A stretch of DNA of 63,337 nt, counting the filler, from Stramenopiles sp. TOSAG23-6 (Eukaryota): the NCBI GenBank assembly GCA_900128565.1. It is 13 parts of 13 records of this genome, joined end to end, with 100 filler letters (N's around TTAATTAATTAA, not from the genome) between each part and the next. Parts side by side here need not be neighbours in the genome. Positions count along the whole stretch, not along the records: positions 26,270 to 32,728 come from LT636694.1; 12 more parts are not named here. One strand, given 5' to 3'. The position numbers and the translations under genes were made by a program. Shown one piece after another: positions 1,111 to 59,930 of this stretch. The notes below the pieces were generated by a model. The model ran no database searches. It was not told the origin of the DNA and was given only the letters and a program-made list of their open reading frames with translations. Position 1 is the stretch's first letter. Each line of letters opens with the position of its first letter.

Positions 1111-4100
1111 TTATTGTACTACAGAGACTATAAACTGTAATGTCGAATACGGCGGAATATCTACAAAATTTGCACCACTTTTTATCCTGGATTTGCCATA
1201 GGCTGCTTTGGATGGGCAGGTAATTTTTCTTTTCCCACCAATTTTCATACACTATAAAGAAAATATTTTTTTGAAATTTTTTTGATTGTTTTTGTTAGGT
1301 ACAAAATTTACTATGAAAAAAAAAAAAAAAAAAAAATTTTTCAAAATATATTTGATATTTTGTTAGGTAAAAAATTAAATTGATGATGAAAACGAACATT
1401 CCTTGAATTCCTATATCCCATCCTTTAATCACTTCACCACGACCTAAGCGAAAACTAAATGGCTTTTTTCCAGATTTGTCAAAGATTTTTCCATTTTCTA
1501 AACGGCCCATGAATTTTTGTATCATATTTTTTAGAAAAAAAAACTGTTAGGTACAAAATTTACTATGAAAAAAAAATTGAAAAAAAAATTGAAAAAAAAA
1601 TTGAAAAAAAAAAACGCACTCATAAGAAACTTTCACTTTTTTCCTATCAATTACTAATGGTCCTTTTCCTATAATGATGTCTTCTGTCATTACACCAAGA
1701 CTCAATTTTTTAGTATTTTTAGTATTTTTAGTATTTTTTGTATTTTTAATATTTTTAATATTTTTTGTATTTTTTGTATTTTTTGTATTTTTACATTGAA
1801 CTTCAATATCATCATCAACATCAGTATTAATTTCGTATTTATCATTCATACGAGATTCCGTACCTAATAATTCTTTTTCGCGTTCCATTTTCTTTCGTTC
1901 TCTTTGACGTCGTTTTTTTTCCTGCTTTTTTTTTCGTTTCAACGAGTCAATCATTTCACCACGTATAAACATAAATCCAATTTCTTTAAGCTCATTACGA
2001 ATTGAATCTGCAGTGATCCAATCTTGAATATCTCTTGCTTTTTGTCTCAAAAGACATAAACGCTTTGCTTCCTGAAGACGAGAGTTTGTATTGTCAACAT
2101 CTACATTTGTTTTTATATTTGTTTTTATATTTATGTTTCTTGATTCTTTCTGAATGGTTGTTGTTTCTTTAGTTGTTGTATTGATATCCTCAGACACATC
2201 AAAATTGTCTTGATTATCATTGTTTGATATAATTCCCATCCAACTGGGCAATGTAGAGACTGACTTTCTTGTTGTAGTTCTATTACATGCACTGTAGCGT
2301 TGTGCGTTTTGTTTTGCTTGTAGTCTTTCCATGGGGGACATGAGCTTCACTTTTTTCCTAGACACCAAACGTCTCACTTGTTTCCTCTTGTAATTATTTT
2401 CTAAATCTTCGTTTTCTGAAAAAAAATAAATCGTACATGCTTTACGAATAGCTTCGCGTTTTTTTTCTTGTTCTTCCATATGCAATAACTCCAACTCTCG
2501 TTGCTCTTCTGCAGCACATTCACTATAAGCAAGTGCAAGGTCAAGTTCTTCAGCATATCGTTGCTTTACAGCTTCTTTTTCTTTTGCTGCTTCATGAATT
2601 AATTCTTTATGCCAATCCCATTCTTTATTTCGATTCATTATTCGTTCTTCAAGAAGTCTTTTCTCAGTTTCATGAAGACATTTTTCANGTAATGCATCGA
2701 CTTTGCGTTCCTTAAGTCTTTGCTCTTCAAGTTGTTCTAACCACACACTATGCTGTTTTTTTGCCATATCCATTCTACGTTTGCGCAATTCATTTTCATC
2801 TTCTTCTGCTTTCTTTGCAGCAATTTTCAAACGCGAAAATTCTTCAGCTAATTCTAATTCAATATCCTGTTTTCTTTTTTGTGCTTTAACATCCGCTAAA
2901 GCCCACAACTTCTCTCTATTAATTTGTGTTTGTTGAGCGTTTAAATTATGTTGGTGAATAGTGTTGAGAAGTTCCAATTCTTTTTCTCGTAGATCTTGAC
3001 GCTCTTTTTTCATCATCTTTGCATTTTGCTCTGCCTGTTTTAGTCGAATTTCGATTTGTTTTAAAGATTCCTCAGATTTCTTTTGTTGTTTCTTCATATT
3101 CGATTCATGTTGGACAATAGATTGTTTGTGTATTTCAAGTGCAATCTCTTTTTCCTTTTGCCATGCTCGTTCTTCTTCCATTAAATCAGATTCTGCAGCT
3201 GCACAATTTATCTCACCTTGACGAATGAGTTCACATTGATTATCATGCCTACGCTGTTGGTCTCTAGCTTTAAACAATTCAAGTTCTTCAAATGCTTTCT
3301 GTGTTACCTTTTTTTCACGCTCTCGCGCGATTTCTCTTTTTCGCATATTCGATTTAGCTCGTTCTTTAGATTCTTCATGAGCCCTCGCTGCTTTTATCTC
3401 CTGAAGTTTTTGCATTTCCATCCATTCCGTATGCATCTCTTCCTCCCTTTTCTTCTCTTTTTGACGGAGTTTTTCCATTTCATTGTCCCATTTCAGTAAA
3501 CGCTTCTTTTCATTATCGTGAGCAATGACACTTGAACGTTGAAAGCATTCTTCTCGCTCTAAATAATACTTCTTCATCCTCTCCCGTCTGCGTCCACGTT
3601 CAGCCTCTACATCACGTTCACGACGACGTTCGGCGAGAGCTTCTTTTTCTAACTTTTCCATTTTAGTTGCATGTGCATGTCTTTTTCTATATTTTGTAGA
3701 AATATTTCAAAAAAAATTCAATTTTTTTTTTATAAATTTGTTAGGTACAAAATGTTTTTACCAAAAAAAAAAAAAATAAATTCGAAATTGAAAAACGTAC
3801 AATGATTCTTTTCTGTCCAATGCTATTTGTTTGAGTCGTTCTTTTCGAGCTTGACGTTCTCGGTTTGCTGAACTATTATGTATTATGAAAAAATATTTTT
3901 TCCATTCAAATATCTCGTTAGATTCAAAATGCTTTACAAAAAAACAAAAAACAAATAATTTTGAAAACGTACATTTTTGTATGCGACTTCAAGTTTTTTC
4001 TTGGCTTTTTCTAATTCAATTTCTCTGATTTCTTTCCTTCTCAAAAGTTGTTCTGAAAGTTTTGCTTTCCGTTCTTTAATTATGATTTTATTTCGTTTTA

Positions 4101-6626: not shown

Positions 6627-7243
6627 ATACGTATAAAAACTTGGAGGAGAATCACAACCAACTTTAAGCATGGCATCTCTATGAATAAAAAGTTTCTTTT
6701 CCAACGAGTTTTCATGGATTATGAAAAAATATTTCAAAATTTTCTAAAAAAAAAATTGTTAGGTACAAAATTTTTTTACCAAAAAAAAAAAATATTTACA
6801 CAAAAAATTGAAATGAAAATTGTTAGGTACAAAATTTACTATGAAAAAAAAATAAATTCAAAATTGAAATGAAAACGTATAGCAATGTCTAAACCAATTA
6901 AGGAATTTAATGTGGAACATGTTCCTTCTTTTTTGTTGAAGCTTCGACGCGCGAAAGATTTTTTGGATGGATTATTTATTTCTACATCAAGTAAGGAATC
7001 AAATGCGGAACATTGTACGTCATAAGCAAATTTAGGTGTATCGAAGCTATCTCTAAGGGGATAAAAAGGTCTCAATGCGGAAACGGAAGAAAATTGAGAG
7101 TTACATTGAAAGTCAAATGTTGCCCTATGTACCGGTGTGTTCGGGCTCGATAATCCGTTACAAGGACTAGGGGAAAATATTTGAGCCTCCAAAGAGAAAA
7201 GAGGGCGAGTTATCGAAAGCGGCTCAATTTTCACTTCTTCCAT
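6627..7243 (-). CDS. Hypothetical protein, 3' partial (exons 7243-6881, 6713-6627)
   Basis: Two ORFs joined in frame by a family intron; next donor GTATGT at 6626. Confidence 0.55.
6714..6880 (-). other. Intron, AT-AT, 167 nt, duplicated branch core
   Basis: att gct|ATACGTTTTCA...TTCATAATCCAT|gaa aac tcg in frame. Confidence 0.7.
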
Positions 7244-13040: not shown

Positions 13041-13253
13041 NNNNNNNNNNNNNNNNNNNNNNNNNNNNNNNNNNNNNNNNNNNNTTAATTAATTAANNNN
13101 NNNNNNNNNNNNNNNNNNNNNNNNNNNNNNNNNNNNNNNNGAAAGAATTCAAAAAATGTAACAATAAAAAATCTAAATCCTCATATATAGATAATTCGGA
13201 AGTGAATCTTCATTGAAGTTTCTGTATTCCCTGAGTAATTTATACTCAGTACA

Positions 13254-19037: not shown

Positions 19038-19537
19038 TTAATCCATTTTTTTTCGATTTTTCTTCTTATTATTAAAAGTTCTCCTTAAATTTTTCTTCCT
19101 ATTATGTTTTGGTGAATACCTCTTTGACTTTGATATAAGTTTTGGATCAAGACAGGTTGTATTTTGGAAAATATTTCAAAAAAAAAATCGTTAGGTACAA
19201 AATTTACTATGAAAAAAAATAAATTCAAAATTGAAAAAAAAATAAACATACTTCCTGTTGTCGCAACAACGAGAGGATTTGTATTTGGCAAAAATCGGTT
19301 TGGTGGGATATCTGACTCATCATCAGCTTTTCCACTGGATATTTGACCATATACTCTCATATTTTCTATAATCGAATGCGACAAAAACAACGATACCAAA
19401 AAGCAAAATAATGGGAACATTTTCATTGATGGGTGTAAAGTAATCGGACGAATACTTGAAGGATCATTATATGTATATACAATGAGATATTCTAGTGCAA
19501 CTAGACCATGGACGACCCAATCCCACCGAAGCCAATC
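19038..19537 (-). CDS. Membrane protein fragment, 5' partial, 2 exons
   Basis: Hydrophobic segments; acceptor AATACAT at 19538. Confidence 0.5.
19157..19251 (-). other. Intron, GT-AA, 95 nt
   Basis: gga a|GTATGTTTA...TCCAAAATACAA|cc tgt; end placed by motif spacing and the frame stays open. Confidence 0.6.
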
Positions 19538-19706
19538 ATGTATTTTAAAACAATATTTCAAAAAAAATCTAAAAAAAATTGTTAGGTACAAAATTTACTA
19601 TAAAAANNNNNNNNNNNNNNNNNNNNNNNNNNNNNNNNNNNNNNNNNNNNTTAATTAATTAANNNNNNNNNNNNNNNNNNNNNNNNNNNNNNNNNNNNNN
19701 NNNNNN

Positions 19707-24435: not shown

Positions 24436-26092
24436 ATGACTTTGCATACGGATGTAGAGATGTCCTCTCTCAAACATCGGCGTGTGGATTTCCAGGAACA
24501 AAAAAAGAATCCAGATACAAGCTTGTTTGTAAAAGAAGTCCGAAGCCCTGCAAGTTTTGTGACTCCACATAACAACAAGAGTAGGAAAAATGGACTTTCT
24601 AAACAATTCTCATACAAAGAAGATACACCGAAACCTCAAAGTCGTATTGAAAAATTCCGTCAACATATAATTGGACCCAAAACAATGTCCTGGTCGGATA
24701 TCGTCACTACAATTCTATCCGCTTTCATTGTTTGTATGATCGCACACACGTTCAATTGTGTAAAGGGTGTTTTAATATTTGGAGATTATAAAAGCACTGA
24801 AGAGTTTGTACCATTAGCTGTAACAATTTATCATGGTACTTCCTTTATTACCGGACTGGCTGTTGTTCTCTATTCAGATTGTCCTATTGGAATTGGTGGC
24901 CCAAATATTAAACATGCTTTTCTTTTTGCTTCACTAATCGTTAAAAACATTGTAAAGGATGTTGTTGGTCACGTAAGTCCCACCGCCGGAGCACATCGTC
25001 GTCTTAGTGGATGTTTTATTTTTTTTCAAATTCGAAATATTGTTTCGTACGAAATTTTTTTTGTACCTAACAAATTTTAGTTTTTTTTTTTAAATATTTT
25101 TCCAAAATATATGAATATGTCTCGTTAGATGTTGACACTGAAGAAAAATTAATATCGACCTTGCTCGGGGCAATTCTTTTTACAAATTTGTTGTTTGGAG
25201 TAATTTGGTACATCCTTGGAAATTATAAGCTCACGAGGGTTGTACAATATATCCCATCTTTTGTGATTTCCGGTTTTATTTCATCTCTAGGGTATTTGAT
25301 CATTATTAAAGCTATCTTTATGTCAACTGAAAAGCACATTTCTTTTCAAATTGGAAGCATGCATGTGCGTCCTCTTATTGAACTAAAATTTTGGAGTTTA
25401 CTTTTACCTGCAATTGTACTAGGAATATTCATGTGGTATGTGAAACATAAGCACATTGGTAAACCGTTGTATACTATGCCTTTAATGATGTACGTTTTTA
25501 TTATGAATTTTTAATTTTTTTTTCATACGAAATTTTGTACCTAACATTTTTTTTGACAAACAAAAAACAAAAAAAAATATTTTTTCACATTAAATGGGTC
25601 TTCCTGTTCTCGCATGTTTTGTTACAATATATGCTCGAGGTTCGTCGATCGACACTGCCAGAAATGTATGTTTTATTTTTTTTTCAATTTCGATTTTTTT
25701 TTTCGTACGAAATTTTGTACCTAACAAAAATTAAGTTTTTTTTTTTTAAATATTTTTCCAAAATACATGGTGATTGGTTTTTTGATGAATTTGAAAAAGG
25801 AACATTTTATCACATTTGGTCAAAATTTAATCTAAAAAAAGTGAATATAATGGCAATATTAAAAATTTCAGGAAATGCATTCATCATAATACTTATTTTA
25901 AGTATCGATGTACGTTTTCATCATGAATTTATTAATTTAGTTTTTTTTTTCATACGAAATTTCGTACTTAACGATATTTTTCATGATTTCGTGTTTTTTT
26001 CACAATACATGTCTTATTGAAGCTTGTCGCATTAAGGAGAGAGTTTGAATTACAAGATATGGACTTTGATAAAGAAATGAGATTGAATGGAT
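24436..26092 (+). CDS. SLC26/SulP family anion transporter, 3' partial, at least 5 introns
   Basis: IGGPN, LTRVVQYIPSFVISGFISSLG and DMDFDKEMRLNG motifs; exons 24436-25008, 25113-25489, 25596-25665, 25769-25909, 26011-26092. Confidence 0.85.
25009..25112 (+). other. Intron, GG-AT (or GT-AT at 25007-25110), 104 nt
   Basis: agt|GGATGTTTTA...CCAAAATATAT|gaa tat gtc in frame. Confidence 0.7.
25490..25595 (+). other. Intron, GT-AT, 106 nt
   Basis: atg at|GTACGTTTTT...CACATTAAAT|g ggt ctt continues a TM helix. Confidence 0.8.
25666..25768 (+). other. Intron, GT-AT, 103 nt
   Basis: aga aat|GTATGTTTTA...CCAAAATACAT|ggt gat tgg. Confidence 0.85.
25910..26010 (+). other. Intron, GT-AT, 101 nt
   Basis: atc gat|GTACGTTTTCA...CACAATACAT|gtc tta restores SIDVLLKL...DMDFDKEMRLNG. 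Confidence 0.85.
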
Positions 26093-26744
26093 GTATGTTT
26101 TATTTTTTTTCAAATTTTATTTTTTTTTTCGTACGAAATTTTGTACCTAACAAATTTTAGTTTTTTTTTNNNNNNNNNNNNNNNNNNNNNNNNNNNNNNN
26201 NNNNNNNNNNNNNTTAATTAATTAANNNNNNNNNNNNNNNNNNNNNNNNNNNNNNNNNNNNNNNNNNNNCGTACGAAATTTTGTACCTAACAATTTTTTT
26301 TAGATTTTTTTTTGAAATATTTTTACAAAATACATGGGAAACGAATTCAACGAGCACTTTAAATACCGTGAATAATCTCTTCAATTTTAGAGATTCTTTA
26401 GGTAAGCCAAAGTAACTGTTTCATAAGCCCACTAGATTAAAAATATAAATAAAAAATATTAGAAGTTTAATCATCCATATTTTATTTATTTTATTCATGA
26501 ATCATGATGATGAGTGATAAATAAAAAGTTAGAAGTTTCGTTCATTTTGTTCAAGATGATCGAAACCATTTTGCGCAAACCTGCTTTTTTAACCAGAGGA
26601 GCGCGTTGTACACCTGCTATATATAACATAGTACTGTGTGACAGTATAACAAAAAGAGAGAAATTTCATATTCTTCAAAAGTGTAGCTAATACAGTCACC
26701 TATCTCTCATAATATCCTTCCTCTTTGTATCTATTCGATACCTT

Positions 26745-28541
26745 ATGTTTATTCGTATATCTATATTGATCTTACTACTTACAAAATCTACAATTGGACT
26801 ACAAAGGTCAACACCAAAGTCTCTCGTGAATGATGATACATGGAACCTGTCACGTGAACTTCGGAGTCTATCAAGTACACGCCTTATGTCCGTCCTCCAC
26901 CGTGCTGGATATTTGAATGTGAATTTGGGACAACTTTATAGTGCAAGTACTCCAAGTGATGAAAAACACAGTCAAAGTCCTCAAATAGTACAGGAAACAC
27001 ATGCTGCACATTCATGTGAAACTGTGACATTAATAACAAATAATCCAACCGATCTAGTGGGTGCTGCAGAAACTATTTCAAAATCTTTCATTGAAGTTGA
27101 CGCGAGTTCTGGACTCAATTCATTATCAAGTAAACTTGGACAACGTAATGGTATTGGTATGCATGATTCTGTAAAAGGAAAGGACGAAATTAAAAAGACA
27201 AAAAAGAAACTCAGTTGTAATTGCGACTCCTATGTACAAAAAAATCATGAATTTCAAAAAAAAATATTTCGTAGTAAATTTTGTACCTAACGGTTTTTTA
27301 TTATTTTTGGTAAAAAAAAAAAAATATTTTTTCACAATAGATAAATGTCAATGTAGAAAACAGTGCTTTTGTAAACTTCAAAGTGACGCCTTTGGTGGTA
27401 CTCAAGTATCAGCAAAAAACACAAAAAATGGATCAGGACAAGCTGGTGGAGCTGGTAATCCTGATCATCAATTTAAGTGCACTTGTTCATTTGAAGGAAT
27501 TGGGGGATACGTTTTCATTATGAGTTTCAAATTTATTTTTTTTTTCGTACGAAATTTTGTACCTAACATGTTTTATTCTACAATAAAAAAAAAATATTTC
27601 TCACAATATTTTGGTGGAATTACCGCAGGTGGGACAATGGACTGCGACTGTAAAATTGCGGATTGTACGTTTTCATTATGAATTTCGATTTTTTTTTTTT
27701 TTTTTGGTTTTTTATAAAAATTTTGTACCTAACCGATTTCGAATTTAATTTTTTTTTTACAATACATGTGCTTGTGAAAAACAATGTTTGTGTCGCCCAG
27801 AAAACGAATTACAGACAACAAGTGAAGATGGAATTTGTGATATTAAAGAAATGAAAACACCAGAAGATTGCTTGAAAGCAAGTCCTCCTGGAAATGTACT
27901 TTTTTATTATGAATTTCGATTTTTTTTTTTTTTTTTTTTTTGGTTTTTGGTTTTCATACGAAATTTTGTACCTAACTAATTTTGAATATTTTTTAAATAT
28001 TTTTTTACAATATATTGGACTCCTGCGACATGTTCAATCCCTGGAATTACTACAAGAGAAGAGTGTGAAAATGCAAAACCGATAAAAGGAAAATGTACGT
28101 GACAATCAGTTTTATTTTTGTTTTTTTTTAATGAAAAAATCCATACCTAACAATCCTGTTTTTTTCGGACAATCAAAAATATTTTTTCACAATATTTGGG
28201 AACCAGAACCACCCAAGGGTATCTGTACAATAAAAAAATTACCACACAATGCGGTTGATTGTAAAGCAGCGGAACCACCAGGGGTATGGTATAAAGATCA
28301 ACACATTTGTGATATACGCCCGCCATTGACTGAAGAAAAATGTGATAAAGTTATTCCAAAAGCGACATGGAAGAGTTATGAGACGTTTCGTTTTGAAACA
28401 CAAAAAAAAAAATCTCCAAAAAATGAAAATCACAATTTTTTTGATGAGAATACTTTTAATAATTCAAATGTAGATGACATCATTGACCCCATTGGTCTTG
28501 ATAAGGATGACGAAACTCTTCATTTTATGGGACTTGGGTGA
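26745..28541 (+). CDS. Secreted Cys-rich repeat protein, 6 exons
   Basis: Signal peptide; repeated CxC...CxCxKQCxC and C...C...PPG.W units restored by 5 introns. Confidence 0.75.
27234..27342 (+). other. Intron, GT-AT, 109 nt, ending AATAGAT with an AG bypassed
   Basis: tcc tat|GTACAAAA...CACAATAGAT|aaa tgt caa tgt gives CNCDSYKCQC. Confidence 0.7.
27507..27611 (+). other. Intron, AT-TT, 105 nt
   Basis: ggg gg|ATACGTTTTCA...CACAATATTT|t ggt gga gives GIGGGGITAGG; full internal motifs present. Confidence 0.65.
27665..27767 (+). other. Intron, GT-AT, 103 nt
   Basis: gat t|GTACGTTTTCA...TACAATACAT|gt gct tgt gives DCACEKQCLC. Confidence 0.85.
27896..28015 (+). other. Intron, GT-AT, 120 nt
   Basis: gga aat|GTACTTTTT...TACAATATAT|tgg act gives PPGNW. 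Confidence 0.8.
28095..28197 (+). other. Intron, GT-TT, 103 nt
   Basis: aaa t|GTACGTGA...CACAATATTT|gg gaa creates the repeat's conserved Trp (GKW, compare GNW and GVW). Confidence 0.75.
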
Positions 28542-28802
28542 AATACCATAAGGTTTGAAAGTAGTAGTAATCATTTAAAATTTGTGATTAGAAATGAAAT
28601 ATGATTATGTACGATTATGTATTGAGATTTTTTTTTTTTCATTAGGGACAAAACAAAAAGTAACATTTGACACTATTTTTATTGAAGGTGAAAACTTACA
28701 AATCAAAATGAAAATCACTAAACACCCCATCGTGTATATAAATGACTATGCTATGTATTTTTCAATACAATTATGTTCAAAACATTCCATAATATTGTTA
28801 CA

Positions 28803-30875
28803 TTATAATTTCACAGTAAACTTTCCATTAAATCCGTGNGTGTTTGCAACAATATCAGAATCACACGATGATCTATTTGAATGAATATTCAAATACTTTT
28901 GTATTTCGTCTTTTTCAGAGCTTCTAATGTTATATATTTGGTTTTTGTATCTAAATTCATGCCCATATGTCGTATAATAATTGCTTAATTTTGACTGTAA
29001 TTCATTTGTATTTTTTTTCACTTTTTCCTCCTGTGTCCAAAGGTGTAATGCCACATTTGTAACATTATTTTGATCATCCTCTGCTTTTGCATCAAGTAAA
29101 GCTCTTCTTTTAATTCTTTTTAATTCATTTTGTAATAAATCATACTTTTGAATCATATTTGTTATTATTTTCACATCTTGTAACCGAACAACTTCCTGTC
29201 TATTTAACAAAAGACATTGTGCATTTGAATGAACACACTTTGAAGTTTCATTTAGAAATTTTACAATGTCAATAAAAGAAATATTAAAATGACTCCAGAG
29301 CTTCCTGACTCTTTGTCTAACTGCATCTAAGTGTAACATTTCTTTATCTTTCACAGGATGTTTATTTACACTGTTCACATTGTCACATGATTTTGCAATT
29401 ATATCTTTTTCTGCCACCTGTAATTTCTCAATCAATTTATTTTTTTCCAGACGTATTTTATTTTCTTTTTTGTGTAATTTTGATAATTTTTCCTTAAAAA
29501 TTGTAGTTTCTTTTACAATATCATTTCGTCTACATTCGAAATCTTTAATCATTGCTTCAAAATCAGATGAAAATTGATTCCCAATATTAGAAGACATTTC
29601 TTTGAATATATCTTTTGCATCATCTTGAAGCTCCTGCAAAAAAATTGTTTCAGATTTTGTTATTTTTTCTATTTCACTCTTAAAATGTATTTTGGAAAAA
29701 TATTTCAAAAAAAAAAATCTAAATGTTTTTTGTTAGGTACAAAATTGCGTACGAAAAGTAAATTCGATTTTTTTGTTAAAAAAAAAAATAAAACCTACAT
29801 ATTTTGAAAGGTCTCCTCTCATTTGGGTTTCAAATTGATTGAATCGTTGACCAATATTAACACCAGTAGCAATTTTTGACATACGGATTTTTTCTTGAAC
29901 ATTCATAATATTTTTTCGTACTATTAAAACTTCATTCGCGTTTTCTCGAGTCTTATTTTCAAGATTTTCTGTCATAGTTTTGAAACATTTTTCAAGTTTC
30001 CATTTTTTTTCAAGTAATTTGACATATAAAATCTCTTTCTCCTCACAAACCTGTCTTTTAATATGGAGACGTAATTTTAAATTTTCTAGTGTACATGTCA
30101 ACTGATCAATGGTATCACTTGATAGACCAAGTGTATTATTTGTAACTTTATTCACTTCTTTTATAATTTTACTCTTTTCAAGAGCTAATTGAGTAGATTC
30201 TTTCGTGTTTTGATTTGTTATAGCGATGATATCTTTTTGAGAATCATTTTTTAATTTTTCAAGTGTTGTAATAGGAAGATTTAAATCGTTTACAGTATTT
30301 TTTACTTCTTCTTTTCCACGTTGTATCTCACTATCAAGGAAGTCAAGTGTATCACTTAAATCCGATGCGTCACGGGTAATGTCTTTTAGTCTATTCCAAA
30401 GAGATTTATCAGTTTCACAAATCAATAATTCTTGTATAAGTTTTACTTGAAGGAAACGGTCCCTTGTGTCAATGATCTCTGTATGACTTTTGTATATTGA
30501 ATGATATTCTTGATTCAATTTGTCTAAAATTAAAGAGTGTTTAACAAGACTGCTCTTTAATTCATTCTGTTCGTGTTTTGCAAAGGCTAACAATTCCTTT
30601 GATAATTTCACTGATTTGTCTGACTCTCGTTGAGAATCCGTCTCCATACTATATACATATTCATGAACACGCTTTAGCTCTGTAGCTAATTGGTATACTG
30701 ACTTTGGACGTTCAAGTTTCTCAGTGGAACTAGACTTTTGTTCCCCCATGAGATAATTTTGTTGTTCTTTTCCGTTAGTGATCACTGACTTGCTTATATC
30801 TTCATTTGAAAGATCACTTGTTTTATCCAAAATAGATTTTTCCATTAATGATCCCTGAATGAGATCACCTGACAT
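28803..30875 (-). CDS. Coiled-coil protein, 2 exons
   Basis: Two long ORFs joined in frame by intron 29685-29798. Confidence 0.65.
29685..29798 (-). other. Intron, GT-AT, 114 nt
   Basis: aaa tat|GTAGGTTTTA...CCAAAATACAT|ttt aag agt. Confidence 0.8.
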
Positions 30876-31224
30876 CAAATATAATTCAATTTAGTCTATT
30901 AATCCATCTAATAGCAGACTGAGATTTTCGTATCTAAAATTGTAATTAAATTACAGTAAAAAAAAATAGTATCTTCTTCAAGAGGAAGGAGATAATTTTG
31001 AGAAATTTGAAATTGAATAAATATTTGGATATTTGGATTTCGTGTCAAGGAGCGTTAACGATCCAAATTTCCTCTCTCTCTCTCTCTCTTCTGAAATCTC
31101 AAAAAATCTAAAAAAATATTTTATTGGTTGGGAGAAGATTTATTTTATCCAGCGCACAAGGCAAGGTTGATTCATTCTGAGTAGAATAAAGAATATTTAA
31201 TCGACTTATTTCTGCTAGAGTAAT

Positions 31225-32596
31225 ATGCCATCTACCTATTTGGAGAAACATGTAAAGAAGAAGAAAAAGGTGAAAGAACGAAATCGACAGCAACGTCTTC
31301 GTGTTGCAGAGCTCACAGATAGTTTGTATCAAGCACAGGAAGAAGCAGCAAGTGCCAACATTCGCTGTAATAATTTACAACGTCGTGTAAATCATCTCGA
31401 GCGTATGAGATCACAAGGACATTCACAACCAAATTCGGTGGGTACTCTTACAATGGCTATTCATAAGAAATCATTGGAAGACTCTGTGATAAATACTGAC
31501 GCTGATACACACAGAATGTTAGTTGAACTTCTTGAAGATACTCGAAGTGCTAAAAATAATTTTGCTTTTGAAATGAAACGAATTACAGAAGAACGGGAGG
31601 AAATTGCGCGTGATAAAGCTAAAATAGCTCAAATTCTACAACATAATCAAAATGGCGATTTGAAACAAGGTACGTTTTCATTATGAATTTCAAAAAACAA
31701 ATATTTTTTTTTTTTTGGTTTTCGTACGAAATTTTGTACCTAACAAATTTCGAATTTAATTTTTTGTACAATACATGTGTACACCATTGGAGTATTAGTT
31801 TCGCAAGTGAGATTCAATCAGACGTGATTCCTTTACAGGATAATATTAGTGCACTTGTCGAAGAACTACAAAAACGACAATTTACTGATACAAAAAAATT
31901 ACAACTACAATGGAAATATCTTTCTAAAGGTATTAAAAAACTTGAAAAAATGTACACTGACAAATGTATGTTTAATTTTAAAAATTTAATTTTAAAAATT
32001 TAATTTTTTTTTTATAGTAAATTTTGTACCTAACAAAAAAAAATTTACTAAAAAAAAAATATATATTTTCCTACAATACATGTCCAAAGAATGAAAATGG
32101 TTCATATTCATTTGTACCAAATCATATATTAGATGAAATTTCTACTGAGTATAAAGCGTTGATTCCAACTGCAATTCGCTGTGCAAAGGAAGAAATTTTA
32201 CAATTATCTTTCAAAAGTGAAAATAATGAAAATAATGAAAATAATGACAACAAAGAAACAAAGAATTTATTTGAAGATTTACAAGAAGAGTGTTGGGAAT
32301 TGAGATCTGAAATAGAAATGAAAAATACAAAATTAAAAAATATACAAGTAAAATATGAAAAAAATTCTTTAAAACTAAAATTATGTACAGATGGAAATGT
32401 CATTTTAAGTCAGAAATTAAAATCTGCCCATGAGCAAATTCAATCCTTACAAAATGAATTAAAACTTTCACAAAATACATTATTAAAAGAAGTCAAAGAG
32501 GCACCTGGAAGTCACACACAGATTATTAATAGCATGAGGCGGCAAATACGTGAAAGAATGAAATTAACAAAGCCACCAGAACAGGATGTTAGAATT
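31225..32596 (+). CDS. Coiled-coil protein, 3' partial, at least 3 exons
   Basis: Three ORFs joined in frame by introns 31670-31776 and 31966-32081. Confidence 0.65.
31670..31776 (+). other. Intron, GT-AT, 107 nt
   Basis: caa g|GTACGTTTTCA...TACAATACAT|gt gta cac. Confidence 0.8.
31966..32081 (+). other. Intron, GT-AT, 116 nt
   Basis: aaa t|GTATGTTTA...TACAATACAT|gt cca aag. Confidence 0.8.
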
Positions 32597-32618
32597 GTAT
32601 ATGATTACTATGAATTTA

Positions 32619-32661
<43 letters not shown>

Positions 32662-32923
32662 TTTTTTCCCTAAAAATTTTTTTTTTTTTTTTTACTAACC
32701 AAAAAAAAAAAAATTTTGAAATATTTTTNNNNNNNNNNNNNNNNNNNNNNNNNNNNNNNNNNNNNNNNNNNNTTAATTAATTAANNNNNNNNNNNNNNNN
32801 NNNNNNNNNNNNNNNNNNNNNNNNNNNNTATTTTTTTTTTGATAAAAATATTTGTTAGGTACAAAATTTCGTACGAAAAAAAAACTGAAAATGTGTACGA
32901 TGAATAAATCATGAGCTACGTAC

Positions 32924-39281: not shown

Positions 39282-39435
39282 NNNNNNNNNNNNNNNNNNN
39301 NNNNNNNNNNNNNNNNNNNNNNNNNTTAATTAATTAANNNNNNNNNNNNNNNNNNNNNNNNNNNNNNNNNNNNNNNNNNNNTGTACCTAACAAATTTTAG
39401 TTTTTTTTTTTTTGAAATATTTTTCCAAAATACAT

Positions 39436-39787
39436 TACAACAAACGATTTCATCTCAACAAGATGAAATTGATAAATTGAAAAAGTCTAAAAAAGATTTA
39501 CAAAAAGAAAATAATTCACTACAAAAGCAATTTGATGATGAAAAATTAGAAAAATCGACTGTAAAGGATAGCATTATTTTGCATTGTATTGACAATGTTA
39601 AATTAAAACATAAAAATGGAACTGATCTATTATGTATGTTTTCAAAATTGAATGTAATTTTTTTTTTGTAGTAAATTTTGTACCTAACAAAAAAACTGAT
39701 TGTAAAGTATTTTTTCGCAATACATATACAGCAACTGAATTAAACGCTATGACGATATCTGAATTATTAGAAAAATGTTTACATTGA
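39436..39787 (+). CDS. Coiled-coil protein C-terminal fragment, 2 exons
   Basis: Exons joined in frame by intron 39634-39725. Confidence 0.55.
39634..39725 (+). other. Intron, GT-AT, 92 nt
   Basis: tta t|GTATGTTTTCA...CGCAATACAT|at aca gca in frame. Confidence 0.7.
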
Positions 39788-39894
39788 AAATAAAGAAAAA
39801 CATGTCATTTGAACTCTTTTGTTTATTATTTTCATCATACATTTCATTATTTTTGGTAGTACATTTTTGAAAAATTACATATTTTTTAATCTTT

Positions 39895-41743
39895 CTATTC
39901 TTCTTGATATTCCAATTTTTCTTTTTTGCATTTTTTTTTTAATGTAGTCATCAGTGGGTATACTAAAAGAAATATACATGTATTTTGGAAAAATATTTCA
40001 AAAGAAAAATGTTAGGTACAAAATTTCGTATGAAAAACAAATTCGATTTTTTTTTTTTCGGTAAAAAAAAAAAAATAAAACATACATACGACAAAGAATG
40101 ATCCGAATGTAACAAGAGTTAATTTTTTATAAATTCCTATTGTTGTTTTGTCTTGAAATGGCGATGTCGATGACGTCAGCATAAAAGAAAGAAAAGATTG
40201 AACAATTAATGATAAAATATTCATCATTACAAAAACCGAAGCAAAAATGCGTTTTTTTGAAGTTTTTGCTGCTTCTGTGACATAGATAGCATTACAATAT
40301 TGCCATGCGCAAACCTGTACTGTAGAAAATATTTTTAAAAATTAGTATTTGTTTTCTTTGGTATTTTGTTAGAAACAAAATTTTCTTTGTAAAAAGAAAA
40401 TGAAATTCAAAATGAAAATGAAAATGAAAATCAAAACGTACATAAATTGTAAAACTAAACAAGCTCAATAGGAAATTGGTATTTTTGAAGATTGATTTAT
40501 CATCATTCTCAATATTATGTCCCTCTTCCAGTGCTATGCAGCGTGTAGCAAACATAACTATAGCCAGTAGACTTATTGATACCATGTATTGTGAAAAAAT
40601 ATTTCAAAAAAAATCGTTTTTTGCTTAGGTACAAAATTTCGTACGAAAAAAAATGTAGGTAAAAATTGAAATGGTGAAAACGTATACTATTAATGATAAA
40701 ACTACACTACAATGAATAAAACTAAGTTGCTTTAATATACTATTTCCAGATTCCCCAAATTTTGAATTATTTTGATATTTCTCAATATATCCTGGAACCA
40801 ATGATGCCAAACAACCTAGTAGTAATGGAATTGACAAAAACGTCCCATTAAAATCAGCTGATTTTGTTGAATGAGAAAGTGAACTCGATCTATCAGTTAA
40901 ATCTTTATATAACTGCGGTTCATATCCATTCACTATTTGATACACTGCATTGAAAAGAACCCAGAGAATAGTAAATATCATGAAACGAGGTTGTAATGAG
41001 AGCGAAAACGTAGCTTGCAAGGCCGAATACTTTTTACTAATAGTTGTAAAACAGCTCATAAAAAATGTTTTCTTTCCATCTTCCACAAAATGTTCACACG
41101 GTGCTGTATCGTCCGATATTCCGTCATAGCGTACTTCTATTACTGGAGTAAAATAGCATAGACTAATGATACCTGCAATTGAAACACTTGTAAAAGATAT
41201 CCAAAATAATATGCGAATAGAAGCACCCAAGACGTGCAACGCAAAGTCACTAAATAATCCACTAAGAAAGTGTGCCAACAAATACGATGCTTGAACCCGG
41301 GAAGTAAGCGTTTGATAATCACTTTCATTGCATACACAGTGATAAATATACGCAAAAAATATAACTTCTCCGACAGAACCTACCGCATAAGTTACCTGCA
41401 TGAGTTGCATCTGCCACAGAGTATTCCCAAAGAGAAGAATAATTCGAGTTAGTATTCTCCCTAACACTCCCAAATATATTATAGGGGTATACCTCAAATA
41501 TTCTGACACCCCACCGAATAATAGTAAAGAAACAAAATAAGCATATGTCCAAATAGGGTATACACTATCATTTACTTCTGATTTTGATAAACCAACTTCA
41601 TCTATAAGATATGCACTCAGATGTGGCTCTGATGGTTTGAATGAAAGAAATATTATAAAGGAACATAATTGCAGTGATGACTTGAAAAGCGTACGACTAG
41701 GTTTTACTGTCGATACATCAGGTGCTAGAAGAATCTCGTCCAT
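39895..41743 (-). CDS. Reduced folate / thiamine carrier (SLC19) family transporter, 4 exons
   Basis: FKPSEPHL, VYPIWTYAY, EYLRYTPII and MQLMQVTY motifs; introns 40584-40685, 40315-40441, 39978-40085. Confidence 0.9.
39978..40085 (-). other. Intron, GT-AT, 108 nt
   Basis: gta t|GTATGTTTTA...CCAAAATACAT|gt ata ttt completes the last TM helix. Confidence 0.75.
40315..40441 (-). other. Intron, GT-AG, 127 nt, same family
   Basis: att tat|GTACGTTTTG...TACAGTACAG|gtt tgc; shifting the register by -1 or -2 makes TAG. Confidence 0.8.
40584..40685 (-). other. Intron, AT-AT (or GT-AC if shifted 2 nt), 102 nt
   Basis: ata gt|ATACGTTTTCA...CACAATACAT|g gta tca. Confidence 0.75.
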
Positions 41744-41989
41744 GTTGCAAACTAATGTACTAGAATAAGCATTGAATGAGCAACATAAGGACCTCTTTTA
41801 TTATTCAAGTTAAGGTTCTGTTATTATTATAGAAAGAAATCAATCGATGTCAATCAAATAATATATCAGTCCAGTCAATTTCGAATTCTGAATTTCAGCA
41901 AAATCAAATAAATTTCAGTGACAGCACTTTTCAAACAAGTAGAACTATTGAAGAATACTATATCATAAATCTTTGAATACTCCTAAATA

Positions 41990-43348: not shown

Positions 43349-43654
43349 TAAACGTGCCATACTGAAACAAGTTAACATTAACATTTAAAACTTAAGAAAA
43401 TATTTCAGTTTTATTTATAGCTAATTAAAAAAATATTCAGCATCTCTGATTGCATTCAAATCTAAATCGCCTAACTTTGGAACTTCTGGGACGTTTTTTG
43501 CTCTTAATACTATATTATCCCGAAGATTTTGCAAAATAGGCTGAGAGTGTAATTCTATAAAAGCTTCGCGTAATTCTGAATTCATAATTTCCACATGTTC
43601 TGTGAAAAAATATTTTTTCTTTTAGGTAAAAAAATCGTTAGGTACAATATTTCG

Positions 43655-47422: not shown

Positions 47423-47544
47423 TGGAAACTTTATAAAATGGCTTTAACCACAAGTACAAGGTTTCAATTTTTGAAATGAAAAATAAAATTTAAATATTTT
47501 TTTTGATACGAAATTCCGTACCTAACATTTTTTTTGTCTACTTT

Positions 47545-48293
47545 TTATTTATGTTTCCGTCGAGAATAACCATTCAGTGGAGCTTTATCTATATAGTTGA
47601 GTCGCAGAGCTTCAGATAGGTGCGAAGAAAATAGGCCTTTTTGTCTAGCATGTACTGTGAAGAAATTATAGAAAACAGAAAATTCGTTAAGTACGCAATT
47701 TCCTATGAAAAAAAAAGATTTGAAATGAAAGATGAAAAGTGAAATTTTTTTTTTTTAATTTGTTAGGTACGGAATTTCGTACTAAAAAAAAACTAAATTC
47801 GAAAAATTGAAAAAAATAAACGTACATGTATTTTCAGTAATTTCTTTTCTTCCTCCGAAACTAAATGTCCAGAATACGCCAAGTCTTCTTGCATTGCCGT
47901 TTTGTGTGGATCTGATCCTCGAAGAATGAAGAGCGAATTTGCCATATTTGTGGAGGACATTCCATGCGGTACTCCTGACACTGTTTTACGTGTTTGCTGA
48001 GCGAGGTTTTTTCGTTTATTGTATATGTCACGAGATCTATGTTTTATATAATATTTCCCCCTTTTTTTTTTATTCTTTTTTGTCATTGATAACTTTGCTT
48101 TTATTTCTTCCAGTTCTGCAGTTAGTTGGTTGCGTCTAATGTTTAACTCATCCACATCAACAACTTTTTGTCTTGTATCCTCCACATCAAAAATCTTCTG
48201 GTTGTCCGCCATGGGCGGCTCACCTGGACTATCTGATTTATGTTCTATTTCATGGGGATATGCTCCATGTACACGCTGTGGGTGTAAAAACAT
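47545..48293 (-). CDS. Hypothetical protein, 2 exons
   Basis: Exons 48293-47826 and 47649-47545 join in frame. Confidence 0.6.
47650..47825 (-). other. Intron, GT-AT, 176 nt, two branch cores
   Basis: ata cat|GTACGTTTA...CACAGTACAT|gct aga. Confidence 0.65.
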
Positions 48294-49980: not shown

Positions 49981-49994
49981 AAACCCTAACCCTA
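49981..49994. promoter_or_regulatory. Telo-box-like element in a divergent promoter
   Basis: AAACCCTAACCCTA between divergent genes. Confidence 0.45.
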
Positions 49995-51873: not shown

Positions 51874-51905
<32 letters not shown>

Positions 51906-59061: not shown

Positions 59062-59930
59062 GTATTTTTGATAATATTTTTAGTGAACAATTTTTACAGT
59101 TTTTAGATGAGCTAGAGAGACGATTACCAACAGCTCCAAAGTTAAAACCGACGTGTACGTTTCCCCCTAACCCTAACATTTTTTATTATTCAGTTGAAAT
59201 ATTTTTTTTAAAATTTTTTTTAAATTTTTTTTTCAAATTTTTTTTTCAAATTTTTTTTTCAAATTCTTTTTTCATAGTAAATTTTGTACCTAACAATGTT
59301 TTTTAATTTTGACATTTTGTTTCACCTACCATGTTCGCATAGAAAATATTATTGTGATTCGACGGCACCTCCTTCTATATTATCACCAAAGTTCTCACTA
59401 AACACACTAGAAGGACACAATAACCCTAACCCTACATATACATCGATTCGTAGTTATATACAATTTTGTATAGAAAAAGTTGTAAAAAGTCAAGAATTTC
59501 AAAAAAAAAATTTTAGGTACGGAATTTCGTATGAAAAAAACAAATTTCAAAATGAAGCTTTGCCTCATATGCGATTTTTACATTATGATCAAATTGGAGG
59601 AAGCTTATCTCCTCATATTGATTTAAATAGAACAAATAGTGATGGTCGTACATCAACGCATACGTTTATTTTATACCTAACCACGTGTCAATATGTACGG
59701 TATCATTATGAATTTAAAATTTTTAAACATTTTGAAATTTTGAAATTTTGAAAAAAAAACTTTTTCAAAATTTAAATTTTTTTTTTTTTTTTTTTTCATG
59801 CAAAAAAAATTTTAATTTTATTTTTTTTTTTTTTTTTCAAATACTCTTTTTACAGTACAGGGAGGTGAAACTGCTCTACTCAAAGATTTAAATGGTACAA
59901 TTTTACCAAATGGAAAGGTACAACCAGTAG
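59062..59930 (+). CDS. 2OG-Fe(II) oxygenase superfamily protein, partial, multi-exon
   Basis: MRFLHY..GGSLSPHIDL (HxD) and STHTFILYLT.CQY|GGETALL. Confidence 0.75.
59155..59332 (+). other. Intron, GT-AT, 178 nt
   Basis: acg t|GTACGTTTCC...CACCTACCAT|gt tcg cat gives KPTCSHRKYYCD. Confidence 0.7.
59695..59860 (+). other. Intron, GT-AG, 166 nt
   Basis: caa tat|GTACGG...TACAGTACAG|gga ggt gaa act restores GGET; a -2 shift makes TAG. Confidence 0.8.

What the first reader, a model, noticed from the sequence alone, without database searches (positions are those of the whole stretch)
27234..28197. Acceptor set by a motif ruler: AG is bypassed, and TT, AA, GA and AG all occur at the same position
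Seen: five consecutive introns in one Cys-rich gene end CACAATAGAT, CACAATATTT, TACAATACAT, TACAATATAT and CACAATATTT. The first skips an AG lying 2 nt before the cut needed for CNCDSY|KCQC. The last needs a TT end to create the repeat's conserved Trp. Elsewhere an AG 5 nt upstream is skipped (introns ending at 1247, 47650, 40315 and 59860). The cut falls at a nearly fixed distance from AATATTTTTT(C/T)ACA, while branch-to-cut distance varies (about 34-51 nt in four measured cases, too long for U12). Inference: the 3' splice site is measured from an upstream element, perhaps by a new RNA guide or protein, instead of by first-AG scanning.
Basis: partly seen in the sequence, partly recalled or inferred. 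Interest (0 to 1): 0.85.

Follow-up and report, generated by a model that had tools for sequence, protein, structure and literature searches.

The report
Mobile-looking introns that end in AT
An uncultured marine protist removes a family of near-identical short introns whose 3' ends are mostly AT rather than the almost universal AG, cutting at a fixed place in a conserved end-piece, and public gene models miss these introns.

Summary
Intron 2 is AT..TT, introns 3 and 4 are GT..AT and intron 5 is GT..TT. Intron 1 is GT..AT, but a 2-nt shift makes AT..AG equally compatible, so its "AG bypass" is unproven.

Across the window the introns form one stereotyped family: (AT|)GTAYGTTTT, T-runs, TTTCGTACGAAATTTTGTACCTAAC, a variable spacer, then GAAATATTTTTTCACAATAYAT|G. 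The cut predicted from the 3' module is the uniquely best reading frame in 20 of 26 introns. One more is fixed by FKBP profile continuity. Their ends are 15 AT, 3 AG, 2 TT and 1 AA. Upstream AG, AT and YAT are skipped.

The "ruler" reading is partly supported. Register within the module predicts the cut better than any dinucleotide. However, the bases at the cut are themselves conserved, AATA is dispensable, and the fixed spacing partly reflects common descent. No guide RNA was found.

The best reading is U2-type splicing of an introner-like family with a non-AG 3' site, probably in a MAST-3-like stramenopile. I found no description in print, and a public gene model reads through one of these introns. 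This is a new variant of a known kind.

The parts
26745..28541 (+). Cys-rich gene, six exons (26745-27233, 27343-27506, 27612-27664, 27768-27895, 28016-28094, 28198-28541). No Pfam family for the first or last exon.
   Evidence: ORFs; RNA contigs covering the exons and their junctions; chain frame test; Pfam none. The start codon is inferred from the first ATG of the ORF.
27234..27342 (+). Intron 1, GT..AT (109 nt). By a 2-nt shift it could equally be AT..AG (27232-27340).
   Evidence: Joint 27231>27341, both=2, X7 record 10. The family 5' logo places G+1 at 27234.
27507..27611 (+). Intron 2, AT..TT (105 nt). No boundary ambiguity. In frame and without a stop codon if retained.
   Evidence: X7 record 11: 27401-27506, then 52 letters, then 27767-27861. 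The middle letters were not shown, so the position is inferred from their length. Also the frame test.
27665..27767 (+). Intron 3, GT..AT (103 nt). Lacks the AATA part of the 3' module.
   Evidence: X7 record 11.
27896..28015 (+). Intron 4, GT..AT (120 nt). Shifted readings AT..AT or TG..TA are possible, but none gives AG.
   Evidence: X9 record 25.
28095..28197 (+). Intron 5, GT..TT (103 nt). Shifted readings TG..TT or TA..TG are possible, but none gives AG. The junction creates the Trp codon.
   Evidence: Joint 28093>28197 in X6 (side 136) and X9 (side 80).
27559..27567 (+). GTACCTAAC, the presumed branch motif of intron 2. The same motif lies at 27283, 27725 and 27968, and as ATACCTAAC at 28143.
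   Evidence: 59 matches against 6.09 expected. Invariant T, A, C, T, A, A columns in the alignment of 21 introns. The branch function is inferred and was not mapped.
28176..28197 (+). 3' terminal module of intron 5 (AAAATATTTTTTCACAATATTT). The equivalent 22 nt end every family intron.
   Evidence: 3' logo of 29 introns; motif hits.
1247..1397 (-). Family intron in an FKBP gene, GTTCGT...GTGTAT|G. It skips an AG 5 nt upstream of the cut.
   Evidence: FKBP_C profile 13-54 ends the upstream exon and 56-93 starts the downstream exon. The junction codon fills position 55.
40315..40441 (-). Family intron in the folate-carrier-like gene, GT..AG, ending TACAGTACAG|. The first AG is skipped. An identical copy lies at 44759-44885 (+).
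   Evidence: The cut at 40315 keeps 54 codons upstream and at least 100 downstream. The upstream AG gives only 30 downstream.
40515..40616 (-). Family intron, AT..AT (ATACGT...CACAATACAT|). A copy lies at 44515-44616 (+). The public gene model reads into it and stops at the TAA of the branch motif.
47650..47825 (-). Family intron, GT..AT, ending CACAGTACAT|. It skips an AG 5 nt upstream and carries two branch modules. A copy lies at 54186-54361.
59695..59860 (+). Intron GT..AG, ending TACAGTACAG|. The first AG is skipped. No recognisable TACCTAAC inside.
19157..19251 (-). Family intron ending ...AAATACAA| (AA) in the family register. The upstream exon also ends in AA.
   Evidence: reading frame only.
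3687..3800 (-). Family intron ending ...AAATATAG| (AG) in the family register.
   Evidence: reading frame only.

Best explanation
These are spliceosomal, most likely U2-type, introns of one recently amplified, transposon-like (introner-like) family. The host is an uncultured marine stramenopile; the taxon is inferred and looks MAST-3-like.

Each copy carries its own signals:
- a yeast-like donor, (AT|)GTAYGTTTT
- a near-invariant branch motif, GTACCTAAC
- a rigid 22-nt 3' end-piece, GAAATA-TTTTTT-CAC-AATAYAT|G

The second splicing step cuts at the last base of that end-piece. The normal end is YAT, not YAG. The cut stays in the same register when the last bases have mutated to TT, AA or AG. 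AG, AT and YAT further upstream are ignored. The 3' site is therefore read as a whole module (position plus context), not as the first AG.

Shown here: the exon junctions, the family, the register, and the skipped dinucleotides.

Inferred:
- Spliceosomal chemistry and the branch at TACCTAAC.
- A conserved U at -1 could pair with either G or A at +1 of the intron. A at -2 is kept, as in ordinary 3' sites.
- The AT at the intron end and the AT before the donor may be a target-site duplication or a preferred insertion site.
For: RNA junctions for five consecutive introns come from three samples of one study.

Family signals:
- 5' logo of 23 introns: G20/A3, T23, A21, C15/T7, G20, then T21 at each of +6 to +8. 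The exon has A at -2 in 16 and T at -1 in 18.
- Branch motif 59 times against 6.09 expected, with invariant columns in 21 aligned introns.
- 3' logo of 29 introns: information is present from -21 to +1 and falls to 0.11 bit or less from +2.

Register:
- With neighbouring introns spliced out, the predicted cut is the uniquely best frame class in 20 of 26 unique introns, where about 9 are expected by chance. There was 1 tie and 5 others.
- Intron 1247-1397, one of those 5, is fixed by Pfam continuity.
- Three consecutive predicted cuts in the sulfate-permease-like gene give a continuous 236-codon ORF, and any shift of 1 or 2 nt shortens it.

Termini of the 21 supported introns: 19 GT and 2 AT at the 5' end. 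15 AT, 3 AG, 2 TT and 1 AA at the 3' end (plus 59695-59860).

Skipped sites in the 20 introns that the script counted: 7 AG in 6 introns, 34 YAT in 17 introns, and 87 AT in all 20.

Family likeness:
- Up to 82% identity over the full length between introns of unrelated genes.
- Median 65% over 210 pairs, against 56% for shuffled sequences (shuffled maximum 65%).

The direct repeat AT|G at both junctions gives 2 letters of left shift in 11 of 23 introns, and 9 and 5 letters in two others.

A public protein model identical to the window ORF apart from one 28-residue gap ends ...FRTKFCT. That is a read-through of intron 40515-40616 to the TAA of the branch motif.
Against: - "U2-type" and the branch site are inferences.
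- The branch motif has one C more than TACTAAC, so pairing with a standard U2 would need a bulge or a changed U2.
- The branch to cut distance of 31-54 nt, with usable-looking sites skipped, has no established mechanism.
- The 3' logo is partly circular, because cut positions were placed by a weight matrix seeded with the five verified ends and three were placed by hand.
- Two introns (11698-11799 and 25013-25112) prefer another frame class. One follows an unmodelled 15-nt exon and the other has a degenerate donor. Neither is resolved.
- TIR and TSD evidence is weak: 5-6 nt ATGTA/TACAT and a 2-nt repeat. Mobility is inferred from likeness only.
- RNA support comes from one study, as contigs. 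The middle 52 letters of X7 record 11 were not shown.
Confidence: 0.6

Rival explanations
1. A dedicated new factor (a guide RNA or a protein) binds AATATTTTTTYACA and measures a fixed distance to the cut, regardless of the sequence at the cut.
For: - The register is kept with TT (RNA-verified twice), AA and AG ends.
- The pyrimidine run of the module keeps its length while other T-runs vary.
- In CACAATATTT a YAT two bases upstream of the cut is not used.
Against: - AATA is absent from RNA-verified intron 3 and from 31670-31776.
- In 1247-1397 the cut is 17, not 16, nt from AAATA and follows the local TAT|G.
- Positions -2, -1 and +1 are conserved.
- No small-RNA candidate: Rfam gave 0 hits at E<=1. 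The 6 of 37 motif matches without a branch motif upstream by my pattern are variant-branch introns or weak matches.
- Spacing is partly inherited within a family.
Confidence: 0.2
2. The real branch point lies inside the 3' module, for example the A at -9 in TTCAC. The fixed distance would then be an ordinary short branch-to-3'-site constraint, as in the fused branch/acceptor motif of Trichomonas and Giardia or in U12-type introns. GTACCTAAC would be something else, such as a transposon part or an enhancer.
For: - A at -9 is present in 28 of 29 introns and is preceded by a T-run. UUCAC fits the loose yUnAy consensus (recalled).
- Relaxed terminal dinucleotides with a distance rule are known for U12-type introns (recalled).
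Against: - GTACCTAAC is the most conserved element of the intron. It is a far better match to the U2-binding TACTAAC (recalled) than UUUUCAC is.
- 9 nt is shorter than usual branch-to-acceptor distances outside Trichomonas and Giardia (recalled).
Confidence: 0.08
3. A transformed, massively expanded minor (U12-like) intron class, as reported for Physarum.
For: - Both G and A are accepted at +1 (20 and 3 of 23; one A is RNA-verified).
- The donor is conserved over 9 positions, RTAYGTTTT, which resembles RTATCCTTT at 7 of 9 positions for the T variant.
- The branch motif ends in CCT(T)AAC-like letters and the 3' dinucleotides are variable. The U12 consensus sequences are recalled.
Against: - The donor lacks TCC.
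- The branch is 31-54 nt from the cut, against roughly 10-26 nt for U12 (recalled).
- A strong T-run precedes the acceptor.
- No U11, U12 or U6atac was found in the window, though 63 kb is no test.
Confidence: 0.05
4. Non-spliceosomal excision guided by pairing of the intron ends, as proposed for euglenid, hemistasiid and Amoebophrya non-canonical introns.
For: The ends are weakly inverted (ATGTA...TACAT). Register 0 gives the most end-to-end pairs, 159 of 276.
Against: - Registers +2 (149) and -2 (128) are nearly as good.
- RNAalifold finds 0 pairs in 21 introns.
- Five single folds have z-scores of -1.21 to +0.23.
- The strong donor and branch motifs argue for a spliceosome.
Confidence: 0.03
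5. Ordinary GT-AG splicing with mis-set boundaries.
For: Intron 1 alone can be read as AT..AG.
Against: For introns 2-5 no shift allowed by the RNA joints gives an AG. 18 of the 21 supported introns end in something other than AG.
Confidence: 0.01

Closest known systems
Non-canonical U2-type introns of the larvaceans Fritillaria borealis and F. pellucida (PMC13326754: outline and one Results section read; review PMC11282704: passages read)
   Same: - 3' AT is the commonest intron end (34% and 44%).
- A YAY triplet forms the last three bases and often also precedes the 5' site. Here the end is CAT or TAT in 27 of 29, and AT precedes the donor.
- A U-rich tract is kept.
- A transposon (MITE) origin with a TSD that creates the 3' site is proposed there.
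- The core spliceosome is thought to be retained.
   Different: - There the 5' ends are mostly AG and very diverse, and only 5% are GT/AG. Here GT is kept (19 of 21), with a strong GTAYGT donor and a near-invariant branch motif.
- Here there is one uniform family.
- The host is a protist, not a chordate.
- The U2AF duplication could not be tested here.
Introner elements of Micromonas, Aureococcus, fungi and dinoflagellates (review PMC11282704: passages read)
   Same: - Many near-identical short introns sit in unrelated genes.
- Each copy brings splice signals.
- Short direct repeats lie at the junctions.
- Aquatic protists, including a stramenopile.
   Different: - Those use canonical GT-AG sites.
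- TIRs and TSDs are clear there and weak here.
- No autonomous element or insertion polymorphism was seen here.
Non-canonical introns and introners of Amoebophrya (PMC7789003: passages read)
   Same: - Most introns are non-GT-AG.
- Repeated intron families carry direct repeats across the boundaries.
- Marine protist.
   Different: - There is no splice signature at the ends there, and 8-20 nt inverted repeats form hairpins.
- Here the donor and branch are strong, no fold is supported, and there is one preferred end (AT).
Nonconventional introns of euglenids and hemistasiid diplonemids (PMC12621601: abstract, Introduction and one Results section read)
   Same: Non-AG ends dominate. A pyrimidine|purine junction tendency is noted in review PMC11282704.
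   Different: Those lack conserved donors, rarely show branch motifs, are GC-rich and rely on extensive end pairing. None of that is seen here.
Fused branch/acceptor motif of Trichomonas and Giardia (recalled; a Giardia paper, PMC10711314, was seen only in a search listing)
   Same: A rigid extended motif runs up to the cut, so the acceptor sits at a fixed place in a conserved block.
   Different: That motif contains the branch point and ends in AG. Here the best branch candidate lies 31-54 nt upstream and the end is AT.
U12-type (minor) introns (recalled; mentioned in the introductions of PMC12621601 and PMC11282704)
   Same: A or G at +1, a long conserved donor, a branch motif ending in ...TAAC, and tolerance of several 3' dinucleotides.
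   Different: The donor sequence, the branch-to-acceptor distance and the presence of a T-run do not fit.

Membership tests
U2-type (major) spliceosomal introns | GT at the 5' end within a donor that can pair with U1 and U6 (GTAYGT-like) | tested here: met
   G+1 in 20/23, T+2 in 23/23, A+3 in 21/23 and G+5 in 20/23. Pairing with this organism's snRNAs was not tested.
U2-type (major) spliceosomal introns | Branch site of TACTAAC or yUnAy type upstream of a pyrimidine tract | tested here: inconclusive
   GTACCTAAC is near-invariant but has one extra C. A T-run is present. The branch was not mapped.
U2-type (major) spliceosomal introns | AG at the 3' end, the first AG after the branch | tested here: not met
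   3 of 21 supported introns end in AG. 6 of 20 skip an upstream AG.
U2-type (major) spliceosomal introns | Removal as a lariat by U1, U2, U4, U5 and U6 snRNPs | not testable with these tools
   No genome is held. No snRNA lies in the window.
U12-type (minor) introns | Donor RTATCCTT | tested here: not met
   The consensus is RTAYGTTTT.
U12-type (minor) introns | Branch motif TCCTTAAC about 10-26 nt from the 3' end, with no pyrimidine tract | tested here: not met
   TACCTAAC lies 31-54 nt from the cut, and a T-run occupies -16 to -11.
Introner / transposon-derived introns | Many introns in unrelated genes share sequence over their whole length | tested here: met
   Top pairs are 82% identical. 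The median is 65% against 56% for shuffled sequences, over 210 pairs. Shared modules appear in the alignment.
Introner / transposon-derived introns | Terminal inverted repeats and target-site duplications | tested here: inconclusive
   AT|G direct repeat: 2-letter left shift in 11/23, and 9 and 5 letters in two others. The ends ATGTA/TACAT are only 5-6 nt. End pairing is not better than in shifted registers.
Introner / transposon-derived introns | Insertion polymorphism, or copies outside genes | not tested
   One window, with duplicated contigs that are identical. The metagenome scans found no relatives.
Fritillaria-type non-canonical introns | Non-AG 3' end formed by a YAY triplet that also precedes the 5' site | tested here: met
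   CAT or TAT at the intron end in 27/29. Exon -2 and -1 read AT in 16 and 18 of 23, but -3 is not Y-biased.
Fritillaria-type non-canonical introns | Non-GT, mostly AG, 5' ends, and duplicated divergent U2AF subunits | tested here: not met
   5' GT in 19 of 21. The U2AF genes could not be examined.
Euglenid / hemistasiid / Amoebophrya nonconventional introns | Extensive pairing that brings the intron ends together, with no conserved donor or branch | tested here: not met
   RNAalifold found 0 pairs. Fold z-scores were -1.21 to +0.23. The donor and branch are strong.

The most novel reading that the evidence does not exclude
In this lineage the near-universal AG rule for the second splicing step has been replaced. 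The 3' splice site is read by position inside a roughly 20-nt terminal module of a mobile intron family, and the last two bases are largely free (AT, TT, AA or AG). An altered or new 3'-site factor does the reading. If so, a transposon family has retrained a spliceosome.
Probability: 0.3. Interest if true: 0.85.

Novelty: new variant of a known kind. Interest (0 to 1): 0.68.

Why it matters
The AG at the 3' end of introns is among the most constant signals of eukaryotic gene expression. Natural systems that drop it are few (Fritillaria, Amoebophrya, euglenozoans), and in all of them the donor and branch signals are blurred too.

Here the donor and branch motif stay sharp while the acceptor has changed from YAG to YAT and follows a register. 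That isolates 3'-site choice as the one altered variable. It makes long-standing questions directly testable: how the second step finds its site, and what U2AF-like factors and the +1/-1 contact contribute.

There is also a practical consequence. The host looks like an abundant uncultured marine grazer lineage. At least one public gene model for it reads through such an intron to the TAA in the branch motif. Its predicted proteome is therefore probably truncated or mis-joined systematically.

Tried and rejected
Searches that gave nothing:
- Whole-genome search: no genome is held.
- Rfam found no RNA family in the window, either at gathering thresholds or at E<=1.
- Metagenome contigs: a 20-nt core of the intron gave 0 hits. 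A 16-nt core gave 118 loci (the scan stopped at its limit). None has the extended motif, so I take them as chance matches in unrelated environments.
- Earlier findings of this scan: nothing on this genome or sequence. The word search returned unrelated tRNA and Ostreococcus notes.

Analyses that failed or were superseded:
- RNA structure: no consensus fold, single folds no better than shuffles, and the end-pairing register is not distinctive.
- The first homology search, with a low-complexity region, gave nothing.
- The first frame scripts picked wrong donors or printed too much. The single-intron frame test gave 17 of 24. It was superseded by the test with neighbouring introns spliced out.
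- Simple local rules were rejected. First AG, first AT and first YAT after the branch all fail. "First YAT followed by G" fits only 7 of 20 by my count from that table.

Readings considered and set aside:
- DNA-level excision, as for ciliate IES elements. The donor and branch signals are spliceosome-like and intron sequence is present in RNA libraries. This was not formally tested.
- A tunicate origin. The best named relatives are stramenopile or alveolate proteins.

Literature: no paper describing this intron type was found with these searches.
- Fritillaria plus non-canonical introns
- Syndiniales introns
- GT-AT introns in protists
- the branch motif as a word (only primers and unrelated hits)
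- MAST-4 introns
- uncultured stramenopiles plus intron
- introners plus stramenopile
- MAST-3 plus intron

I read passages of PMC5778133, of preprint 10.1101/2020.10.15.341214 and of preprint 10.64898/2026.04.17.719054. They mention introns only in gene-prediction methods or as genome fractions.
Full report
**What is there**

The window is AT-rich eukaryotic DNA, 26-41% G+C in 2-kb steps. It is built from contigs joined by N44-TTAATTAATTAA-N44 linkers, and some contigs occur twice. No whole genome is held for it.

Region 26745-28541 (+) holds a six-exon Cys-rich gene.

**Check of the observation with RNA**

One search for sequencing runs found polyA seawater metatranscriptomes that hold parts of the stretch. 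Contigs of four of them were laid on 26270-32728.

| Intron | Coordinates | Ends | Evidence |
|---|---|---|---|
| 1 | 27234-27342 | GT..AT | X7 record 10: joint 27231>27341, 109 nt skipped, 2 letters fit either side. AT..AG (27232-27340) is equally compatible. |
| 2 | 27507-27611 | AT..TT | X7 record 11: 27401-27506, then 52 letters not shown, then 27767-27861. No shift is possible. |
| 3 | 27665-27767 | GT..AT | Same record. The 52 letters are the length expected for exon 27612-27663/4. |
| 4 | 27896-28015 | GT..AT | X9 record 25: 27837-27893, 28014-28093, 28197-28366. |
| 5 | 28095-28197 | GT..TT | X9 record 25, and X6 record 5. |

- These contigs differ from the window at 0-3 positions.
- The junction-bearing runs are three samples of one study.
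- X8, from a second study, covers an exon but showed no listed joint.
- Non-AG acceptors are therefore real for four of the five introns.
- For intron 1 the RNA cannot show that the AG at 27339-27340 is bypassed. Only the family register argues for GT..AT.

**A single intron family**

GTACCTAAC with up to one mismatch occurs 59 times against 6.09 expected. TTTTTYACAATA occurs 10 times against 0.34 expected.

Listing the surroundings and aligning 21 introns shows one architecture:

- an exon ending in AT
- the donor GTAYGTTTT
- often CATTATGAATTTCGAATTT
- a T-run of very variable length
- TTTCGTACGAAATTTTGTACCTAAC
- a variable A/T spacer
- the end-piece GAAATA TTTTTT CAC AATAYAT, followed by an exon starting with G

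Introns of unrelated genes are up to 82% identical over their full length. The median over 210 pairs is 65%, against 56% for shuffled sequences with a maximum of 65%. Sub-families are visible, for example 27665-27767 with 31670-31776. This is what introner families look like.

**Where the cut falls**

A weight matrix seeded with the five verified ends placed the 3' module in 46 unique branch-motif contexts. I placed three ends by hand.

The 3' logo of 29 introns gives:
- T at -1 in 27
- A at -2 in 27
- C or T at -3 in 20 and 7
- A at -9 in 28
- a T-run at -16 to -11
- AAATA at -21 to -17 in 23-26
- G at +1 in 19
- 0.11 bit or less from +2 onward

This logo leans on the matrix that placed the sites, so I tested the cuts by reading frame.

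- With neighbouring family introns spliced out, the predicted cut is the uniquely best frame class in 20 of 26 unique introns. About 9 are expected by chance. There was 1 tie and 5 others.
- Of the 5 others, 6714-6880 (48 against 47 codons) and 45115-45222 (33 against 26 codons) are near-ties.
- 1247-1397 is settled by homology. The upstream exon matches FKBP_C positions 13-54 up to its last residue. The downstream exon starts at position 56. The junction codon fills position 55.
- 11698-11799 follows an unmodelled 15-nt exon, and 25013-25112 has a degenerate donor. Both remain open.
- In the sulfate-permease-like gene, three consecutive predicted cuts give one 236-codon ORF, and any shift of 1 or 2 nt shortens it.

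Termini of the 21 supported introns: 19 GT and 2 AT at the 5' end. 15 AT, 3 AG, 2 TT and 1 AA at the 3' end.

**Is AG, or any dinucleotide, the signal?**

No. One search counted 20 supported introns with a recognisable branch motif. It dropped 59695-59860, which has none.

| Site skipped between branch and cut | Introns affected | Total sites |
|---|---|---|
| AG | 6 | 7 |
| YAT | 17 | 34 |
| AT | 20 | 87 |

- At 40315 and 59860 the module ends TACAGTACAG|. The first AG is out of frame and the second, in the family register, is in frame.
- 47650 ends CACAGTACAT|.
- 1247 is fixed by Pfam.

In the two RNA-verified CACAATATTT| ends, a TAT two bases upstream is not used.

Branch A to cut varies from 31 to 54 nt, and donor to branch from 53 to 79 nt. 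Two introns with a duplicated inner module have 121 and 138 nt.

The variation sits in the T- and A-runs outside the module. The 7-nt pyrimidine run inside the module keeps its length. That argues for selection on spacing, and not only for inheritance.

**Limits of the "ruler"**

- The bases at the cut are conserved, so an extended acceptor consensus and a ruler cannot be separated by sequence alone.
- The named anchor AATATTTTTT is missing in RNA-verified intron 3 and in 31670-31776.
- In 1247-1397 the cut lies one base further from AAATA and follows the local TAT|G.
- No guide RNA candidate was seen. Rfam gave nothing at gathering thresholds or at E<=1.
- Of 37 matches to the module with up to 4 mismatches, 31 have a branch motif upstream by my pattern. 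Two of the other 6 have variant branch motifs just upstream, and the rest are weak matches. A 63-kb window is a weak test.

**Structure**

End-to-end pairing, as in euglenid, hemistasiid or Amoebophrya introns, is not supported.
- RNAalifold predicts 0 pairs in the 21-intron alignment.
- Five introns fold no better than shuffles, with z-scores from -1.21 to +0.23.
- The register-0 count of possible terminal pairs is 159 of 276. That is close to the count at +2 (149).

**Most likely mechanism**

Commitment, at 0.6: this is spliceosomal removal of an introner-like family whose copies carry donor, branch and acceptor module. The acceptor is YAT in a fixed register.

The following steps are inferred from recalled knowledge of spliceosome structure and were not tested here.
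- A at -2 is retained, as in normal acceptors, where it contacts the branch adenosine.
- U at -1 could pair with G or A at +1. That would explain why both GT and AT donors work with a T end.
- The AT before the donor and the AT at the intron end form a direct repeat AT|G. The left shift is 2 letters in 11 of 23 introns, and 9 and 5 letters in two others. The AA-ending intron also follows an exon ending in AA. This fits a target-site duplication or a preferred insertion site, as proposed for the TAC/YAY of Fritillaria (PMC11282704 passages; PMC13326754 Results section).
- The module may be read by an altered U2AF-like factor. This is an analogy with Fritillaria and was not tested.

The rivals are given with odds in their own section of this report.

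**Whose genome**

- A TMEM184-like exon finds its best named relatives in Platysulcus tardus (54%), unnamed EukProt proteins (61-64%), Vitrella (48%) and Digyalum (44%).
- The folate-carrier-like ORF finds P0053, a EukProt protein whose source name begins GSMAST32. By tblastn it covers 41743-40628 at 92.2% identity over 372 columns. Given its 344 residues, I calculate 343 of 344 identical plus one 28-residue gap.
- I take the organism to be an uncultured marine stramenopile of MAST-3 type. This is a taxon guess from a name, not a test.
- P0053 ends ...FRTKFCT. That is the translation of intron 40515-40616 down to the TAA in the branch motif. The public model therefore does not splice this intron.

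**Comparison and novelty**

The closest systems are listed in the report, each with what I read of it. The nearest in behaviour is Fritillaria: 3' AT is the commonest end, with a YAY triplet at the end and before the donor (PMC13326754). It differs in having non-GT donors and no uniform family.

Introners share the family nature but are GT-AG. I file the feature as a new variant of transposon-linked non-canonical introns. It fails the AG criterion of standard U2 introns, and the donor, distance and tract criteria of U12 introns.

I found no description in print with eight searches (and the motif searches). Passages read from three papers or preprints on marine single-cell and metagenome-assembled genomes also held none. 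Supplements could not be opened.

**Verdict**

- Interest is 0.68. The finding is real, appears undescribed, and bears on a basic rule of splicing and on the annotation of an abundant uncultured lineage.
- The proposed new measuring machine is not shown.

Noticed in passing
window 6472-6571, 13041-13140, 19607-19706, 26170-26269 and 11 further sites of the same form: The window is a chain of contigs joined by N44 + TTAATTAATTAA + N44 linkers. Some contigs occur twice: 39383-41797 is repeated inverted at 43580-45817, and 46742-52354 is repeated at 53278-58890. Counts made in the window must be de-duplicated.
   Followed up: partly
window 40628-41743 (-), protein P0053: The public gene model is identical to the window ORF apart from one gap. 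It ends by reading through a family intron to the TAA of the branch motif. It also removes an in-frame 84-nt GT..AG segment (about 41014-41097) that has none of the family's features. That may be a prediction artefact or a second intron type.
   Followed up: partly
ORF ends at 1550, 17454, 26691-27287, 29736, 40628, 43580-44572 and 61710: Many ORFs end in ...KFCT or ...KFHT. This is the translation of AAATTTTGTACCTAA. The branch motif supplies an in-frame TAA in that reading frame whenever an intron is not removed.
   Followed up: no
window 27507-27611 (+): Intron 2 is 105 nt, in frame and free of stop codons. Retention would add 35 residues instead of truncating the protein. The RNA contig seen has it spliced out.
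   Followed up: no
window 6714-6880 (-) and 47650-47825 (-): Two introns carry two tandem copies of the T-run plus branch module. This internal duplication makes them 167 and 176 nt long.
   Followed up: no
window 11683-11697 (+): A possible 15-nt micro-exon (GGAATAGGCGGTCAC) lies between a family 3' module ending at 11682 and the donor at 11698. There is no RNA evidence for it.
   Followed up: no
window 26270-26485, 27350-27565, 29510-29725 and 31886-32101: In the polyA metatranscriptome contigs, summed depth over the conserved intron modules is hundreds to thousands. Over the exons it is about 1-7 (table 2). This fits a very large family or abundant unspliced RNA, but the tool warns that such depths are not quantitative.
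   Followed up: no
window 46719-46811 (+) and 47650-47825 (-): The exon before the donor repeats 9 letters (ATAATATAT) and 5 letters (TACAT) of the intron's own 3' end. This hints at insertion into sites that resemble the element's end, or at a longer duplication.
   Followed up: partly
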